Source: a virus
Virus record (IMG/VR): IMGVR_UViG_3300005253_000186
Span: 1-64,000 of that record
Length of the DNA: 64,000 nucleotides
Strand: one strand, 5' to 3'
In this document: one piece after another, positions 59,229-63,361 of the stretch
Layout: every line of letters begins with the position of its first letter
Numbering within the stretch: position 1 is the stretch's first letter
Translations under genes and position numbers: made by a program
Notes under the pieces: model-generated
The model's input: only the letters and a program-made list of their open reading frames with translations
Told to the model about the DNA's origin: nothing
Databases searched by the model: none

Positions 59229-59870
59229 TTATGCTCGTATCTCTACGAGCTCGAAAGCTCCGAACTTGCCGCCCCTTTCGGGGCGCCACTCGCCAATGCC
59301 GACAGAGCGACCGGCCCTGTCGACTATTGATGCGAGGTCATCCGGCCGCAGAAGATCTTGGTCAATATCTGCCTTGACGACCATCTCCCAGCCTTTCGGA
59401 AAAATGGCTCTGGTCTTCTCGATCATCTTTCTTCCGCTACCGCGTGTGGCGATGTTAACTTCCGCCGTATACGGCTTCGGAACAACCTTCGTGACTGGGA
59501 TAACATCTTCGGGAACATGAACCGCTGCACGAATCAAGTCTCGAAGATCCCAGTCTTTCACCTCATGGGCCATTCTAGTGCATGCCAGCTTCACGTAGTA
59601 TCCCGGCATGCCGTACTTCCCATGCTTTCTTTCACTCCACTTCTCCCGACCATCAACAGGGCAGAGCGCCTGCTTGAACTGCTCGTCGGGAGTCATCTTC
59701 CCGAACACCTTCGGGTCGATTCGGCAGTTACGGATTTCTCCGTGTTTTGTCCGCCAGTTGCTGCACAGAAGATCTGAGATCCCTCGGATGACGATCTCGA
59801 TGCTGGTCATCACCATCTTCGGGATATAGACTCTTCCGCCTTGTTGCATCGTTGCCTGTTCCATGATCAT
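59229..59870 (-). CDS. Cas7/RAMP-like protein, paralog 2 (candidate effector for the adjacent array)
   Basis: N-terminal IVIRGISDLL, central YGMPGYYVKLAC, RAIFPKGW, C-terminal glycine-rich loop RAGRSVGIGEWRPERGGKFGAFE. Confidence 0.7.
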   Translation of the reverse strand: MIMEQATMQQGGRVYIPKMVMTSIEIVIRGISDLLCSNWRTKHGEIRNCRIDPKVFGKMTPDEQFKQALCPVDGREKWSERKHGKYGMPGYYVKLACTRMAHEVKDWDLRDLIRAAVHVPEDVIPVTKVVPKPYTAEVNIATRGSGRKMIEKTRAIFPKGWEMVVKADIDQDLLRPDDLASIVDRAGRSVGIGEWRPERGGKFGAFELVEIRA

Positions 59871-59951
59871 CCCTCCAGAGAAAGCGGGAGGAGAGGATTC
59901 CCGCGGGGGCGAGTTAGTCCTCTCCTCCCAGACAGCACGGAAGAACGCCAG

Positions 59952-60722
59952 CTACTTCCGTCCGCTGCCCTTTTTGTAGATGATGGGGAAGGCCTCATTC
60001 CGGGAGAACAATCTCTTCTTGGGGGCCTTCGTATGCTTCATGGAGACGGGCTCGAACCGGCCCATCATCCCATTGCAGGACGGCCTCCAGTCCCCGACAC
60101 CGACACTCATCCCGGCGCGATATAGAAGATTGAACACCGAGATCTCGTCGATGATCGACTTGTCGATGCTCATTACGATGTTCGCCTCCCATTCTGCGGG
60201 GAAGCACCCGCGGAAGCGAATGTCCGCGCTCTTGCTTGACGGGAGACGGACCACGTCTTGCCGATTGTAGGGCGTCATGTTCTCGATCCCCACCACATCG
60301 TCTTCCACGAAGAAGCAACCGCGAGCATACGTCATGTTGAGCCCTTCAACGTATCTGGCAGCTCCGACGCATGCCTGCTTGAAGGCGTGGCCGGCAAGAC
60401 CGAACTTTCCGGGCTTGTTATCCTTCCACTTCTCCCGCCCGGGCACGACGTAGAGGGACTCCATGTACTCCTGGATGGGTTCCCGCAATCCTCTCTTCGG
60501 ACGAGAGACGTTCATCTGGTTGTCGAGGATTTTCCTTTGGGCCGCAGCCCCGAACCGATGCGTGATCAAGGGCGACAGGCCGATGATGTGGATGATGTAG
60601 TAAACCCAATCCGGCTTGATGATCTCGATCGTCTTGTTCTCGGCATCCTTGCCGGTCTTCTTTGCGACCTTCTTGGTCGTCTTCTTTTTCGTGCTCTTCT
60701 TTCTCGCTGTCTGTACAGCCAT
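59952..60722 (-). CDS. Cas7/RAMP-like protein, paralog 1 (candidate effector for the adjacent array)
   Basis: IHIIGLSPLITHRF, FGLAGHAFKQAC, IRFRGCFPAEW, glycine-rich loop RAGMSVGVGDWRPSCNGMMGRFE; clearly homologous to 59229-59870. Confidence 0.75.
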   Translation of the reverse strand: MAVQTARKKSTKKKTTKKVAKKTGKDAENKTIEIIKPDWVYYIIHIIGLSPLITHRFGAAAQRKILDNQMNVSRPKRGLREPIQEYMESLYVVPGREKWKDNKPGKFGLAGHAFKQACVGAARYVEGLNMTYARGCFFVEDDVVGIENMTPYNRQDVVRLPSSKSADIRFRGCFPAEWEANIVMSIDKSIIDEISVFNLLYRAGMSVGVGDWRPSCNGMMGRFEPVSMKHTKAPKKRLFSRNEAFPIIYKKGSGRK

Positions 60723-60836
60723 GTCAAAGACTCCTTCTGGGGTGTGGGACCTTTCGGCCTCCGGTGATTCATAACTTTATAGATTCTCCGAGTCCTCCGC
60801 CTCGGTAATTTGTGTTGGTGAGCAAAATGAACTGAT

Positions 60837-62604
60837 CCAGCCGTAACCTAGCATACCTGATCGCGCCAAGACGGGCGATGACCTGCCTCCCAGCCACGCC
60901 CCGCCGAAGATGGCTTTGACAGCCACCTATGTAAGAGAGGATGTGGGCCCAGAGTCCTCTGAATTTCTTATACCGTATTTCCAGCCCGGACAAAACGTGC
61001 CCTACCGTTCCACACCGCTCCGTGCCAAGCCTACCAGCCTTAACCCGCCTGAACGTGCGCGACCCTCCCCGACGAGACTTGCACTCCAGCCGTACCCTAG
61101 CCCGCCAATTCATAACGCGCAGCAACAGGCTCCGCCCAACAGCGACCTGCCTTCCAGCCATGCCCCGACGAACATAACGGATCCCCGACCCGACCTGGCG
61201 AGCCGAGCCTAGCCGTCCAGCCATACCCTGCCACAACGAAACGGACCTTTCCAGACACCTCCGTGCCATCCAGCCGTAACCCGCCGAACCTACCCTAGCC
61301 TAACCGATCCGTGCCACAACGTGCCGAACCATACCATCCAGCCGCACCATGCAATTCCGGACCCAGCAATGCCACTCCGGGCAGAGCCGAGCCTTCCAGC
61401 CGTACCTCTACGGGACGTGCCTAGCACTGCCGATCAGCACCATCCACGCCTTCCAGCCTCAACACAACGTCCCAGGACTAACCTCGCCAAGACCAACCTT
61501 CCAGCCTCGCTTCGCTAGCCTTGACGAGCCGTACCGGTCAGCGACGAGCCCGTCCCAAACTTACCCTCCAGCCGCAACCCACAATAACAGGCCAAGGCCC
61601 GACAGGCGGCACCTGACCGCACCTACCAGCCATAACGCGCAGCGCCTAGCCCAACGGCACCCTGACGCACTTCGCCAGTCCTCCCAGCCAAACCCGAACA
61701 GAATAAAACGGATCATACAGAACACTTCCGTGCCGTGCCGTGCAGAACCTAGCCCTCCAGCCATACCGCACCGAGCCTGTCCGGGTCACGCGGGAACAAG
61801 ACACACGATGCCATCCAGCCGTACAGGAACACGCCGTGCCGAGCGCGAACCAAACGCAACCTACGCGGACCAACCACCCAGCCGTAACATGACCCTCGGC
61901 AACCAACAGTGACGTGACCAACCCGAACGCACCCAACCATCCAGCCTAGACACAACCGATCTCGACTTTCCAAGCCAAGCCGAGCCTGACCCTCCAGCCA
62001 CAACTAGACAAAACAATCCGCCCAAACGGCAACCCCGCCTAATCACGCCATCCAGCCATGAGATAACGAGCGCGGCCATGCCGGAACGTGCCCGGACGAA
62101 CCTAGCCCAACCGGTCCGAACCTTCCAGCCCCACATGAACCCACAGGGCCTAGCCCCGACGCGCCAGATCCAGACGAGCCTAGACACACCGACCAGCCGT
62201 AACTTACCATGCCATTGCGCGCCTAACGCAACGGGCCTCATCCTGCCATCCAGCCACACCCGGATAAATCCGGACAAACCTAACCCGGAGCCGCCCTTCC
62301 AACCAGCCGTACCGGGACAAAACAATCCGGGACGGGACGAGCCTTGCCTATCCACGCCCCTCCAGCCATAACCCGCTCAGACGAACCCGGACTCGCATGA
62401 CCCTCCTCGCCTCTCCGTCCAGCCGTGCCAAACAACGCCGCAACACAACCCAGCACAACACGCAAGGCCTGGCCTGGCCTACCAGCCGTAACATCCCCTC
62501 CATGACAGACGGTGACGTACCCATCCAGGGCGCACCATGCCATCTCCAGCCATACCCCGCCGTACACTGACGAACCCAAACGTTCCAGAACGTGCCAGCC
62601 AGCC
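60837..62604 (-). repeat. Non-coding array of ~29 units delimited by GGCTGG, each made of (GGY-like triplet + NN) 5-nt registers; candidate guide-RNA array
   Basis: CCAGCC (+ strand) at 60837, 60890, 60981, 61034, 61086, 61154, 61217, 61270, 61338, 61396, 61453, 61501, 61568, 61626, 61684, 61757, 61815, 61878, 61941, 61994, 62052, 62125, 62193, 62250, 62303, 62362, 62419, 62482, 62546, 62599; 21 of 29 spacings are exactly 5n+3. Confidence 0.9.
60967..60974 (-). promoter_or_regulatory. GGTATAAG promoter-like motif inside the array
   Basis: The same octamer precedes many operons in the window; it lies in the only long (91-nt) array interval. Confidence 0.55.
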
Positions 62605-63306
62605 TTAATCGCCACCCGCTGAGTCGCGGTGACGAGAAAGATAGATCTTCCTCGGGCGCTTCTGGTGCTTCCGCTCCTTGTTGATGCCGGACAGGATCGA
62701 ATCGCACTTGCCCCTGATGGTATTGCACAGCTTCGCGAGAACCTTCATGTACTGATACTTATCGGCGATATGACGGAGATCATTCGCGGCGTTAATTAGC
62801 GCCTGCTGGCGCATGTCCGGATCAGACATGACCTCGAAGGTCGGAAAGTAACGCCGATCCGTCTGACGATCTCCGGTCTGGATGGAGATCATAATCGGTG
62901 ACTCGATCATCTGCCCTCTTGCGTCCGTGTCGATCACGATGATCGAACGGCAGAGATACTTGGCCTGTTCAATGCGCCACTTGTCCGCTGCGACCTTGTT
63001 GACCCAATCAAAATAAGGGTTGAGCGGAGAGGATCCTTGGGACGCCGCGCTAACGATGTTCTCCGGCGTGCAGTCAACGCCACTGGATGCCAGGTCATAC
63101 AGGGCGGCGCCATACGTCTTGGCCTCCACCTTGTTCAGGCGTGCTCCTGGACCAGGCTTGAAATCTCGATTATCAATGTGGACGGATCCGTTGACCCATA
63201 CGACTTCGTGCGGACCCTTGGCCTTCGGTGGCTTTCTGGCCGATTTCCTCTTAGAGGACTTCTTCTTGTCTTTCGCCTTCTTTACTGTCTTCTTCTTCTT
63301 TGCCAA
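62605..63306 (-). CDS. Hypothetical protein upstream of the array (candidate accessory factor)
   Basis: TTG start with AGGAG SD; core TPENIV.AA....SPLNPYFDW....AADKWRIEQAKYLCRSI; stop codon abuts the first array unit. Confidence 0.75.
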   Translation of the reverse strand: MAKKKKTVKKAKDKKKSSKRKSARKPPKAKGPHEVVWVNGSVHIDNRDFKPGPGARLNKVEAKTYGAALYDLASSGVDCTPENIVSAASQGSSPLNPYFDWVNKVAADKWRIEQAKYLCRSIIVIDTDARGQMIESPIMISIQTGDRQTDRRYFPTFEVMSDPDMRQQALINAANDLRHIADKYQYMKVLAKLCNTIRGKCDSILSGINKERKHQKRPRKIYLSRHRDSAGGD

Positions 63307-63353
63307 CTTCGGTCTCCTGTTCTGAGGGGATCAAAAGAAAACGCTACAGTCTT

Positions 63354-63361
63354 CTTATACC
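63354..63361 (-). promoter_or_regulatory. GGTATAAG promoter-like motif heading the accessory gene / array / Cas7-like locus
   Basis: Recurrent octamer, 47 nt upstream of the 63306 start codon. Confidence 0.6.

What the first reader, a model, noticed from the sequence alone, without database searches (positions are those of the whole stretch)
59229..63361. Candidate non-CRISPR RNA-guided system: 5-nt-periodic array, two Cas7/RAMP-like genes and an accessory gene
Seen in sequence (minus strand, one direction): GGTATAAG promoter motif, then a 233-aa gene whose stop codon abuts a 1.77-kb array of ~29 non-identical units, then two paralogous genes ending in RAGxSVG(V/I)G(D/E)WRPxxxGxxGxFE. Established knowledge: an N-terminal strand plus a C-terminal glycine-rich loop is the signature of RAMP/Cas7-group proteins, which polymerise along guide RNAs with a fixed nucleotide step. 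No cas1, cas2, cas3, cas6 or identical direct repeats occur in the window. Inference: each unit is processed to a ~50-70 nt RNA coated by one subunit per 5 nt, with the conserved triplet gripped by protein and the variable dinucleotides free for target recognition. This could act against competing phages or in gene silencing. It matches my recollection of recently reported phage VIPR-type loci; that link is from memory and needs verification.
Basis: partly seen in the sequence, partly recalled or inferred. Interest (0 to 1): 0.97.

Follow-up and report, generated by a model that had tools for sequence, protein, structure and literature searches.

The report
Phage VIPR guide-RNA system, two Viprs
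This stretch of a large marine-sediment phage is a VIPR system, a CRISPR-like RNA-guided DNA-silencing system first described in 2026, here with about 29 guide units and two diverged copies of the guide-binding protein.

Summary
On the minus strand lie a promoter-like GGTATAAG box, a 233-aa gene, a 1,768-bp array (30 GGCTGG boundaries, 29 units of 48-91 nt, 20 of 29 of length 5n+3) and two paralogous genes.

VIPR systems are in print: four 2026 bioRxiv preprints were found. Both proteins belong to the Vipr family:
- A profile of them hits the solved 'SUSP1 Vipr protein' (PDB 36pp) at E 5.3e-9.
- Both match phrog_4652, the family of SUSP1 Vipr.
- The G-loop G-x-G-(D/E)-W-R-P and the thumb arginine are kept.

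The array follows the published code, as Y-N-N-G-(G/T) pentamers. The 233-aa gene is a conserved neighbour of Vipr genes in 27 of 27 phage records listed in both searches.

Unusual points are a second, fast-evolving Vipr paralogue that appears to be kept together with the first in a distant relative, a tail-less array with a 13-nt junction, and a promoter box inside the array.

Targets remain unproven. One guide spells the DnaB-helicase Walker B motif, but a reversed control also gave many hits.

This scan has noted VIPR arrays before on other DNA (649 notes, at least 427 genomes). Verdict: a real new member of a known kind.

The parts
63354..63361 (-). GGTATAAG promoter-like box upstream of the accessory gene
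   Evidence: 21 matches in the window against 0.61 expected, 20 of them on the minus strand; the context is intergenic. Promoter function is inferred.
62605..63306 (-). 233-aa Vipr-associated accessory gene (vap-like) with a lysine-rich N-terminal tail
   Evidence: phrog_15946 at E 2.4e-12. Homologues lie within about 450 bp of Vipr homologues in 27 of 27 phage records listed in both searches (loci inspected). No similarity to SUSP1 Vap1. No hit in Pfam, NCBIfam or PDB.
60837..62604 (-). vrRNA array: 30 GGCTGG boundaries, 29 units of Y-N-N-G-(G/T) pentamers joined by about 13 nt (G-K-T-A-Y-GGCTGG-A-N-GG)
   Evidence: No stable fold (z -0.89). No Rfam hit.
61690..61762 (-). Unit whose dinucleotides, read antisense with the wobble base skipped, spell ..G-I-[D/E]-L-V-V-V-[D/E]-Y-L (DnaB Walker B motif); a candidate guide against DnaB-type helicase genes
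   Evidence: The control weakens it; treat it as a lead only.
60967..60974 (-). Second GGTATAAG box, inside the 91-nt unit
   Evidence: It would start a transcript carrying the last complete unit and both vipr genes (inferred).
60842..60900 (-). Last complete unit (53 nt) with its two flanking GGCTGG boundaries, downstream of the internal box
59952..60722 (-). vipr-B: mainstream Vipr (256 aa) with a lysine-rich N-terminal extension
   Evidence: phrog_4652 at E 1.4e-14. 33-36% identical to Vipr homologues of 36 phage records. Keeps the equivalents of H17, R138, D177, W178 and R179. 145 of 154 family proteins compared are closer to B than to A.
59885..59930 (-). 13-bp-stem hairpin between vipr-B and vipr-A, followed by a U-rich stretch and the vipr-A ribosome-binding site
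   Evidence: the whole 106-nt stretch has z -2.04. A role as attenuator or RNA end is inferred.
59229..59870 (-). vipr-A: divergent Vipr paralogue (213 aa; a 211-aa form is on record)
   Evidence: phrog_4652 at E 2.2e-10. Single-sequence hit to PDB 36pp at E 0.0064. It forms a small clade (A plus 6 relatives in the tree) on a long stem. The H17 equivalent is S/N and the D177 equivalent is E.

Best explanation
The locus is a VIPR (Viral Interference Programmable Repeat) system of a large, tRNA-rich marine-sediment phage.

Proposed mechanism:
1. The minus strand is transcribed from two phage-specific GGTATAAG boxes. The first gives the accessory gene plus about 27 guide units. The second gives one unit plus vipr-B and vipr-A.
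2. Each unit (8-13 variable Y-N-N-G-G/T pentamers between GGCTGG junctions) becomes a vrRNA of about 50-70 nt.
3. Vipr protomers polymerise on it, one per pentamer, and sequester G-G/T-Y through the G-loop (G-x-G-D/E-W-R-P) and the thumb arginine.
4. The exposed NN dinucleotides pair with double-stranded DNA, skipping every third target base. The complex then blocks transcription of genes of competing phages or other elements.

What is shown and what is inferred:
- Shown here: the anatomy, the family membership of both proteins and of the array code, and the conserved linkage of the accessory gene.
- Taken from the papers on SUSP1 and P. fulva VIPR: one protomer per repeat, the skip rule and silencing.
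- Inferred: promoters, processing at the junctions, the division of labour between the paralogues, and the targets.
For: Protein family:
- A profile of A, B and 5 relatives hits PDB 36pp 'SUSP1 Vipr protein' at E 5.3e-9 over 122 positions; the next hits are at E > 1.
- Both paralogues match phrog_4652 nearly full length, and SUSP1 Vipr itself matches that family at E 1.4e-96.
- In a 10-sequence alignment R138, G174, G176, R179 and P180 (SUSP1 numbering) are invariant and W178 nearly so. The cryo-EM preprint names R138, D177, W178 and R179 as contacts of the GGY bases.

Array:
- The pentamer logo is Y/N/N/G/K with about zero information at the two N positions, as in the published YNNGG code of 9-16 repeats.
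- The SUSP1 vrRNAs read here show the same rhythm.

Linkage and context:
- Vipr homologues of Gordonia phage ODay, Mycobacterium phage Saal and cyanophage Cy-LDV1 sit next to a homologue of the 233-aa gene and next to tail-less pentamer tracts punctuated by a 4-nt step.
- The record is an IMG/VR virus record, about 51% complete, with 33 tRNAs and a tmRNA.
- No guide matches the phage's own 84 kb above shuffled guides, as the discovery preprint reports for its systems.
- Contigs of two other marine-sediment studies carry the flanking genes at about 90-95% identity. By eye, some of their loose ends inside the array continue as other pentamer-periodic sequence, one of them with the GCTGGAAG junction.
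Against: - No RNA data: no listed holder run is RNA, so transcription, processing and unit ends are unproven.
- The RAMP fold could not be tested by structure. The Atlas model of B resembles only unnamed viral proteins.
- There is no 3' tail or pseudoknot like that of the characterised type II vrRNAs, so how units are delimited is unknown.
- 9 of 29 units break the 5n+3 rule, and about a quarter of pentamers end in neither GG nor GT.
- The fifth position is G in only 61%.
- Six guides were tried against public collections. Five gave only chance-level matches. The sixth (DnaB motif) is weakened by its control.
Confidence: 0.88

Rival explanations
1. It is a VIPR system aimed mainly at host genes (for example silencing of defence or other host functions) rather than at competing phages or satellites.
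For: No phage target was secured for 5 of the 6 guides tried. Notes of this scan on other genomes report guides that spell motifs of host defence genes (unchecked AI notes). The guide dinucleotides correlate with the antisense of codon positions 1-2 (r 0.49, n = 16 classes), which fits coding targets of any owner.
Against: The host is unknown, so host genomes could not be searched. One 20-base guide pattern found nothing in 185,579 species' genomes. Published natural targets are mostly satellites and prophages. One earlier scan claim of this sort partly fell on later checking.
Confidence: 0.2
2. It is a decaying or idle VIPR locus: the array is a relic and the second paralogue a drifting duplicate without function.
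For: 9 of 29 units are irregular, many pentamers are degenerate, and no targets were found.
Against: Both genes are intact with ribosome-binding sites. The A-type clade keeps 43 invariant columns across 8 sequences of 45-93% identity. An A-type and a B-type protein appear to share one 31,836-base ENA contig in a distant relative. Relatives in two further studies keep all three genes at about 90-95% identity. The discovery preprint notes frequent internal degeneracy of working vrRNAs.
Confidence: 0.05
3. The periodic stretch is not an RNA gene array but a DNA-level element (G-rich repeat, G-quadruplex tract, origin or packaging repeats) that merely lies beside the Vipr genes.
For: GG every 5 nt on one strand (41% G) could form two-tetrad quadruplexes. 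No RNA evidence exists.
Against: The exact published code (Y-N-N-G-G) with uninformative N positions. The same tracts lie beside Vipr homologues in unrelated phages. Experimental proof for SUSP1 that such tracts are vrRNAs. The only such tract in the record lies between the accessory and vipr genes, on their strand.
Confidence: 0.03

Closest known systems
VIPR systems with tail-less ('staggered') vrRNA arrays, seen here in actinobacteriophages (Gordonia phage ODay, Mycobacterium phage Saal and relatives) and cyanophage Cy-LDV1; the class is described in bioRxiv 10.64898/2026.04.26.720920 (legend of fig. S18 read, figure not seen)
   Same: A B-type Vipr (33-36% identity, E about 1e-22). The same accessory family phrog_15946 next to it. 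Contiguous pentamer tracts without a hairpin tail, whose units are set off by a shortened 4-nt step (GG-C-A/T-GG).
   Different: Those loci have one Vipr (one place per record in 36 records) and, in the three loci scanned, only two short pentamer tracts or one tract of 168 nt. Here there are two paralogues and 29 units. The gene order is accessory, array, vipr rather than array, vipr, accessory. The junction has two 4-nt steps (5n+3) instead of one. Which of the published types I-VII this is could not be read, because figures are not held and supplements are closed.
Type II VIPR of Escherichia phage SUSP1 (KT454805; vipr 28474-29061, vap1 28031-28471) and of a Pseudomonas fulva prophage: the experimentally and structurally characterised systems
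   Same: Vipr family (phrog_4652; PDB 36pp). The G-loop D/E-W-R and thumb Arg. The YNNGG guide code. Phage-borne. An accessory gene beside vipr. One guide upstream of vipr and others elsewhere.
   Different: SUSP1 has 4 separate vrRNAs of about 100 nt, each with an invariant 3' tail that folds (a pseudoknot per the preprint), and Vap1 (phrog_5926). Here there is no tail, the junction is 13 nt, the accessory protein is unrelated (no BLAST alignment), there are two Viprs, and identity to SUSP1 Vipr is only 16-23%.
Class 1 CRISPR-Cas effector complexes (Cas7 backbone with Cas5/Cas6)
   Same: A RAMP-family protein polymerising on a guide RNA with a fixed step and periodic flipped bases (as described in the two preprints). 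A long array in which a short constant element alternates with variable guide content, n+1 junctions for n units. Two diverged RAMP paralogues in one operon.
   Different: No Cas1. No direct repeats or contiguous spacers. The guide information is spread over NN dinucleotides. No nuclease gene is seen in the locus.

Membership tests
VIPR system | Vipr protein: sequence homologue of the described Vipr family (SUSP1 Vipr) | tested here: met
   Profile against PDB 36pp at E 5.3e-9. phrog_4652 for A (2.2e-10), B (1.4e-14) and SUSP1 Vipr (1.4e-96). The family has 4,255 representative clusters at E <= 0.001.
VIPR system | G-loop and thumb residues that hold the GGY bases (R138, D177, W178, R179 of SUSP1 Vipr; H17 for G1) | tested here: met
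   In alignment A2, R138 and R179 are invariant and W178 nearly so. Position D177 is D in B and E in A. H17 is kept in B but is S (N in its relatives) in A. So the feature is met in full by B and in part by A.
VIPR system | RAMP fold (RRM core, glycine-rich loop, thumb) by structure | not testable with these tools
The Atlas's own model of B (pTM 0.72) matches only unnamed viral clusters. The fold is inferred from homology to the solved protein.
VIPR system | vrRNA genes: tandem YNNGG pentamers (9-16 per guide), GGY conserved and NN hypervariable | tested here: met
   189 pentamers give Y 89%, N (0.03 bit), N (0.06 bit), G 81%, G 61%/T 32%. There are 8-13 pentamers per regular unit, counting the first G-N-N-G-G step. 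The relaxed fifth position is a departure; the preprint lists related consensus forms.
VIPR system | Vipr-accessory (vap) gene in the locus | tested here: met
   Homologues of the 233-aa gene are adjacent to Vipr homologues in 27 of 27 records (18 phage names) listed in both searches. Which of vap1-6 it is was not determinable. It is not Vap1.
VIPR system | Not associated with a CRISPR array or cas adaptation genes; borne by a virus | tested here: met
   No Cas1. No CRISPR-like tandem repeat in 56000-64000. No Rfam CRISPR-DR or other family in 58000-64000. IMG/VR virus record with 33 tRNAs and a tmRNA. Cas2, Cas3 and Cas6 were not searched.
VIPR system | vrRNAs are expressed and co-purify with Vipr | not testable with these tools
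   No RNA run was listed among the 5 holder runs.
VIPR system | Guides match natural DNA targets by the one-nucleotide-skip rule | tested here: inconclusive
   There are no self-targets. 5 of the 6 guides tried gave chance-level hits. The guide at 61690-61762 matches DnaB-type helicase genes (best 24 of 26), but a reversed-order control also gave 57 stretches.
Type II VIPR (SUSP1 / P. fulva type) | Each vrRNA ends in an invariant, structured 3' tail; the accessory protein is Vap1 | tested here: not met
   The junctions are about 13 nt and the array RNA shows no special fold (z -0.89). The SUSP1 tails with hairpins are visible for comparison. There is no similarity to Vap1, which belongs to a different PHROG.
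Ribozyme-interspersed VIPR arrays | Hammerhead ribozymes between vrRNAs | tested here: not met
   No Rfam family at E <= 1 in 58000-64000.
CRISPR-Cas class 1 | Identical direct repeats with contiguous spacers, plus cas1/cas2 | tested here: not met
   Only a 6-nt invariant core recurs. Cas2 itself was not searched.

The most novel reading that the evidence does not exclude
The two Vipr paralogues form one heteromeric effector. Mainstream Vipr-B would build the filament on canonical G-G-Y pentamers. The fast-evolving Vipr-A has lost the G1-contacting histidine, lies behind a hairpin, and appears to be kept together with a B-type gene in a distant relative. It would be a specialised subunit that caps or reads the GGCTGG junction, or the more degenerate G-T pentamers of the 3' half, and so sets unit boundaries in a tail-less array. 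That would be a natural case of RAMP subfunctionalisation inside VIPR, the step that the discovery preprint postulates on the way to multi-RAMP class 1 CRISPR effectors. At least one guide would be aimed at the Walker B motif of DnaB-type helicases of rival phages.
Probability: 0.2. Interest if true: 0.7.

Novelty: new member of a known kind. Interest (0 to 1): 0.42.

Why it matters
VIPR is a months-old class, so each well-dissected natural locus helps to chart its range. This one shows a long, CRISPR-like array of about 29 guides in a large environmental phage. The units are set off only by a 13-nt register-breaking junction rather than by a folded tail.

It also has two diverged guide-binding proteins that appear to travel together. 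If they divide labour, the locus would give a simple test bed for two questions: how guide boundaries are defined without a tail, and how one RAMP became several, which bears on the proposed VIPR-to-CRISPR route.

For the scan itself the result is sobering. The kind is already published and has been met many times on other DNA.

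Tried and rejected
I fell back on sequence profiles against PDB chains and on PHROGs.

Context of close relatives.
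- The search for related loci found no relative in viral contigs, metagenome contigs or genome contigs (A-type alignment).
- Co-occurrence of A-type and B-type genes therefore rests on equal source and contig length only: ENA, 31,836 bases for P0002 and P0158. No accession numbers were given.

Accessory protein. There was no hit in Pfam, NCBIfam or PDB by profile. The only close homologue was its own record. The Atlas gave only unnamed viral clusters.

RNA evidence. No RNA holder was listed.

Array coverage in relatives. In runs X4 and X5 the array is thinly laid, with joints that skip 258 and 780 nt (sides 36 and 21 letters). The tool warns that such joints at under 95% likeness may come from repeats, so I draw no conclusion on unit turnover from them.

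Targets.
- Self-targets: best fractions 0.74 on average against 0.71-0.73 for shuffled guides.
- Guides against 155 Vipr-family and other fetched proteins by codon prefixes: best 0.83, equal to the shuffles.
- The five guides that gave chance-level pattern hits are listed in the Against line.
- The KVLVTAVN reading of unit 61039 (8 of 17 hits in frame) is a common peptide, not a family.
- The same dinucleotides in reversed order gave 57 stretches, 24 of them in one other Walker-B-like family.
- Matches outside the core (mean 3.4 of 10) do not exceed what family conservation would give.
- No other guide matches the 119 fetched loci above shuffles.
- I chose this guide by eye from 40 decoded peptides, so a look-elsewhere effect applies.

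Origin of paralogue A. A quick tree of 69 rows was built; the careful search did not finish. Rows left out were the representatives from P0050 on, apart from the groups named. It leaves the A and B clades unresolved relative to each other.

The correlation of NN with antisense codon prefixes (r 0.49, 16 classes) may only reflect the A-poor strand.

Supplementary tables and figures of the preprints (type assignments, locus lists) could not be seen. This very contig may already be among the 664 published loci, since protein A is on record in NCBI and UniRef.

Full report
What is there.

The window belongs to an IMG/VR virus record of 84,457 bases, judged about 51% complete. It carries 33 tRNA genes and a tmRNA. 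Public runs that hold the stretch are marine-sediment metagenomes from three studies. On the minus strand the locus reads as follows:
- A GGTATAAG box at 63354-63361.
- A 233-aa gene at 62605-63306.
- A 1,768-bp array at 60837-62604 that starts at the gene's stop codon.
- vipr-B (59952-60722, 256 aa).
- A 13-bp-stem hairpin (59885-59930).
- vipr-A (59229-59870, 213 aa).

The GGTATAAG box occurs 21 times in the window against 0.61 expected, 20 times on the minus strand, typically just upstream of genes and tRNAs. A second copy lies inside the array at 60967-60974. As a result the last complete unit and the two vipr genes have their own box.

The array.

GGCTGG occurs 31 times in 60700-62700 on this strand. 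Two copies overlap at the start, which leaves 30 boundaries and 29 units.
- Twenty of 29 units have a length of 5n+3 (48 to 73 nt); the chance of 20 or more is 1.6e-8.
- The other units differ by one base, apart from the 91-nt unit that holds the internal box.
- Identity at lag 5 is 0.391 against 0.293 in shuffles (z 9.2), and lag 3 is low.
- Between junctions the pentamers read Y (89%), N, N, G (81%), G/T (61%/32%), with practically no information at the two N positions.
- The junction consensus is G-K-T-A-Y-GGCTGG-A-N-GG. It can be read as two successive 4-nt steps that shift the register by -2.
- GG endings dominate in the 5' half of units (68 GG: 23 GT) and less so in the 3' half (36: 33; Fisher p 0.004).
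- The RNA would have no special fold (z -0.89).
- No Rfam family, hammerhead included, matches.
- No second array exists in the record.

The proteins.

A and B are paralogues (31% identity, E 2e-24). Pfam and NCBIfam are silent on both. Other searches place them in the Vipr family:
- Protein A alone hits PDB chain 36pp_D, 'SUSP1 Vipr protein', at E 0.0064, and B at E 0.1.
- A profile of A, B and five relatives reaches E 5.3e-9 over 122 positions.
- Both match phrog_4652 almost end to end.
- The Vipr gene of phage SUSP1, found with the same profile at 28474-29061 of KT454805, matches that PHROG at E 1.4e-96.
- An exhaustive profile search finds 4,255 representative clusters at E <= 0.001.

In a 10-sequence alignment the thumb arginine (R138 in SUSP1), G174, G176, R179 and P180 are invariant and W178 nearly so. 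The cryo-EM preprint (Results section read) names H17 and D177 as contacts of the first G, R138 and W178 as contacts of the second, and R179 as a contact of the pyrimidine. B keeps all five. A and its relatives have S or N for H17 and E for D177.

The two paralogues compared.
- Of 154 family proteins compared, 145 are closer to B and 9 to A.
- In a quick tree the A clade (7 rows) sits on a stem of 2.94 changes per column and the B clade (5 rows) on one of 1.01. The two are not resolved as sisters.
- An A-type protein (P0002, 52% to A) and a B-type protein (P0158, 63% to B) both come from ENA with a longest contig of exactly 31,836 bases. The pair therefore seems to be conserved in a distant relative. 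This is an inference from equal lengths, not a read contig.
- The discovery preprint counts 670 Vipr proteins in 667 systems (Methods read), so two Viprs in one system looks uncommon there.
- Notes of this scan report two-Vipr loci with a DinG-type helicase elsewhere (unchecked).

The accessory gene.

The 233-aa protein matches phrog_15946 (E 2.4e-12) and nothing else with a name. Its homologues occur in 33 phage records: 27 Mycobacterium, 5 Gordonia and 1 cyanophage. Homologues of B occur in 36 records. All 27 records (18 phage names) listed in both tables have the two matches within about 450 bp of each other, by my reading of the coordinates.

Three loci were inspected (ODay, Saal, Cy-LDV1). 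Each shows vipr next to the accessory gene, and all three have tail-less pentamer tracts beside them whose units are set off by a 4-nt step, GG-C-A/T-GG. The protein is unrelated to SUSP1 Vap1.

The window's system therefore belongs with this subfamily. Its array style fits the legend of the preprint's fig. S18 ('staggered' arrays, neighbouring vrRNAs overlapping by 1 nt; legend read, figure not seen). The published type number could not be read.

How it probably works.

By homology with the characterised systems, each unit yields a vrRNA on which Vipr protomers assemble, one per pentamer. The protomers hide G-G/T-Y and present NN. The filament binds double-stranded DNA whose sequence reads NN-x-NN-x and represses transcription.

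With 8-13 pentamers per unit, a guide specifies 16-26 bases over 23-38 bp. Since there is no folded tail, I infer that the register break at the junction ends each filament and that the RNA is cut or trimmed there. The arrangement of n+1 junctions for n units fits cutting within the junction.

The hairpin before vipr-A suggests less A than B. Together with A's altered G1 contacts, this supports, weakly, a specialised role for A.

Targets.

No guide matches the phage's own 84 kb above shuffled guides. Patterns from five units found nothing, or only chance-level matches, in viral, metagenome or genome collections.

Following a lead from earlier notes of this scan, I decoded all regular units as codon prefixes. 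Unit 61690-61762, read antisense, gives ..G-I-[D/E]-L-V-V-V-[D/E]-Y-L, the Walker B motif of DnaB-type helicases.
- Its 20-base pattern has one exact match in the viral collection, inside an ORF with a DnaB_C domain (E 3.4e-60), with 23 of 26 guide bases matched.
- The 16-base core has at least 118 matches. 54 of the 81 examined fit a strict DnaB pattern, and the best scores 24 of 26.
- The same dinucleotides in reversed order gave 57 stretches, 24 of them in another Walker-B-like family.
- The matches outside the core are no better than family conservation predicts.
- The record itself has no DnaB_C match over the cut-off.

I rate this as a lead of about one in three, not a finding.

Comparison and novelty.

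The kind is known. Four preprints of 2026 describe it. One of them recovers 99 VIPR-like clusters from sequence alone. This scan holds 649 notes with these words from at least 427 genomes, among them arrays of 40 and more than 50 guides.

What is particular here:
- The apparently conserved pair of a mainstream and a divergent Vipr.
- The two-step 5n+3 junction.
- The promoter box inside the array.
- The setting in a large, tRNA-rich sediment phage.

Protein A is on record in NCBI and UniRef, so the contig may already be among the published 664 loci. The supplementary tables that would tell were closed.

This is a new member of a known kind, with a testable twist.

Noticed in passing
window 29467-57524: 33 tRNA genes and a tmRNA (54169-54528), all on the minus strand, in a virus record judged about half complete. 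This is a very large tRNA complement for a phage.
   Followed up: no
window, 21 sites (for example 889, 7637, 24786, 48207, 63361): GGTATAAG occurs 21 times against 0.61 expected, 20 times on the minus strand, mostly just upstream of genes and tRNAs. It is probably this phage's own promoter element.
   Followed up: partly
window 62605-63306, 59952-60722, 58889-59158, 11694-12254, 24920-25501, 5132-6172: Several proteins of this phage, including the accessory protein, Vipr-B and the small ORF downstream of vipr-A, begin with a lysine-rich tail (up to 13 K in the first 25 residues). The meaning is unknown.
   Followed up: no
window 24291-24370 (minus strand): A short G-periodic stretch (about 8 pentamers of the GGCGC/GGCAG kind) was flagged by the loose period-5 scan but not by the strict Y-N-N-G-K scan. 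It is a possible solo guide or chance.
   Followed up: partly
window 60837-62604: Polarity inside units: pentamers ending in GG dominate the 5' half (68:23 over GT) but not the 3' half (36:33), Fisher p 0.004.
   Followed up: partly
L004 3593-3740; L005 2622-2789; L006 3259-3298 and 4061-4164: Annotated phages ODay (Gordonia), Saal (Mycobacterium) and Cy-LDV1 (cyanophage) carry unannotated pentamer guide tracts next to 'hypothetical' genes that are Vipr and accessory homologues. In Saal the locus lies in the immunity/excision region.
   Followed up: partly
L171, L173, L174 and 21 further loci of L168-L224: The reversed-order control pattern landed in a conserved ORF family with the motif GLY(D/E)VVVLDSV(I/L)N in 24 viral contigs. 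This is a reminder that short codon-register patterns easily hit Walker-B-like strands.
   Followed up: no
window 39800-39970: A 409-aa ORF gives a weak, sub-threshold DnaB_C match (13.7 bits). It is probably another P-loop ATPase rather than DnaB.
   Followed up: no
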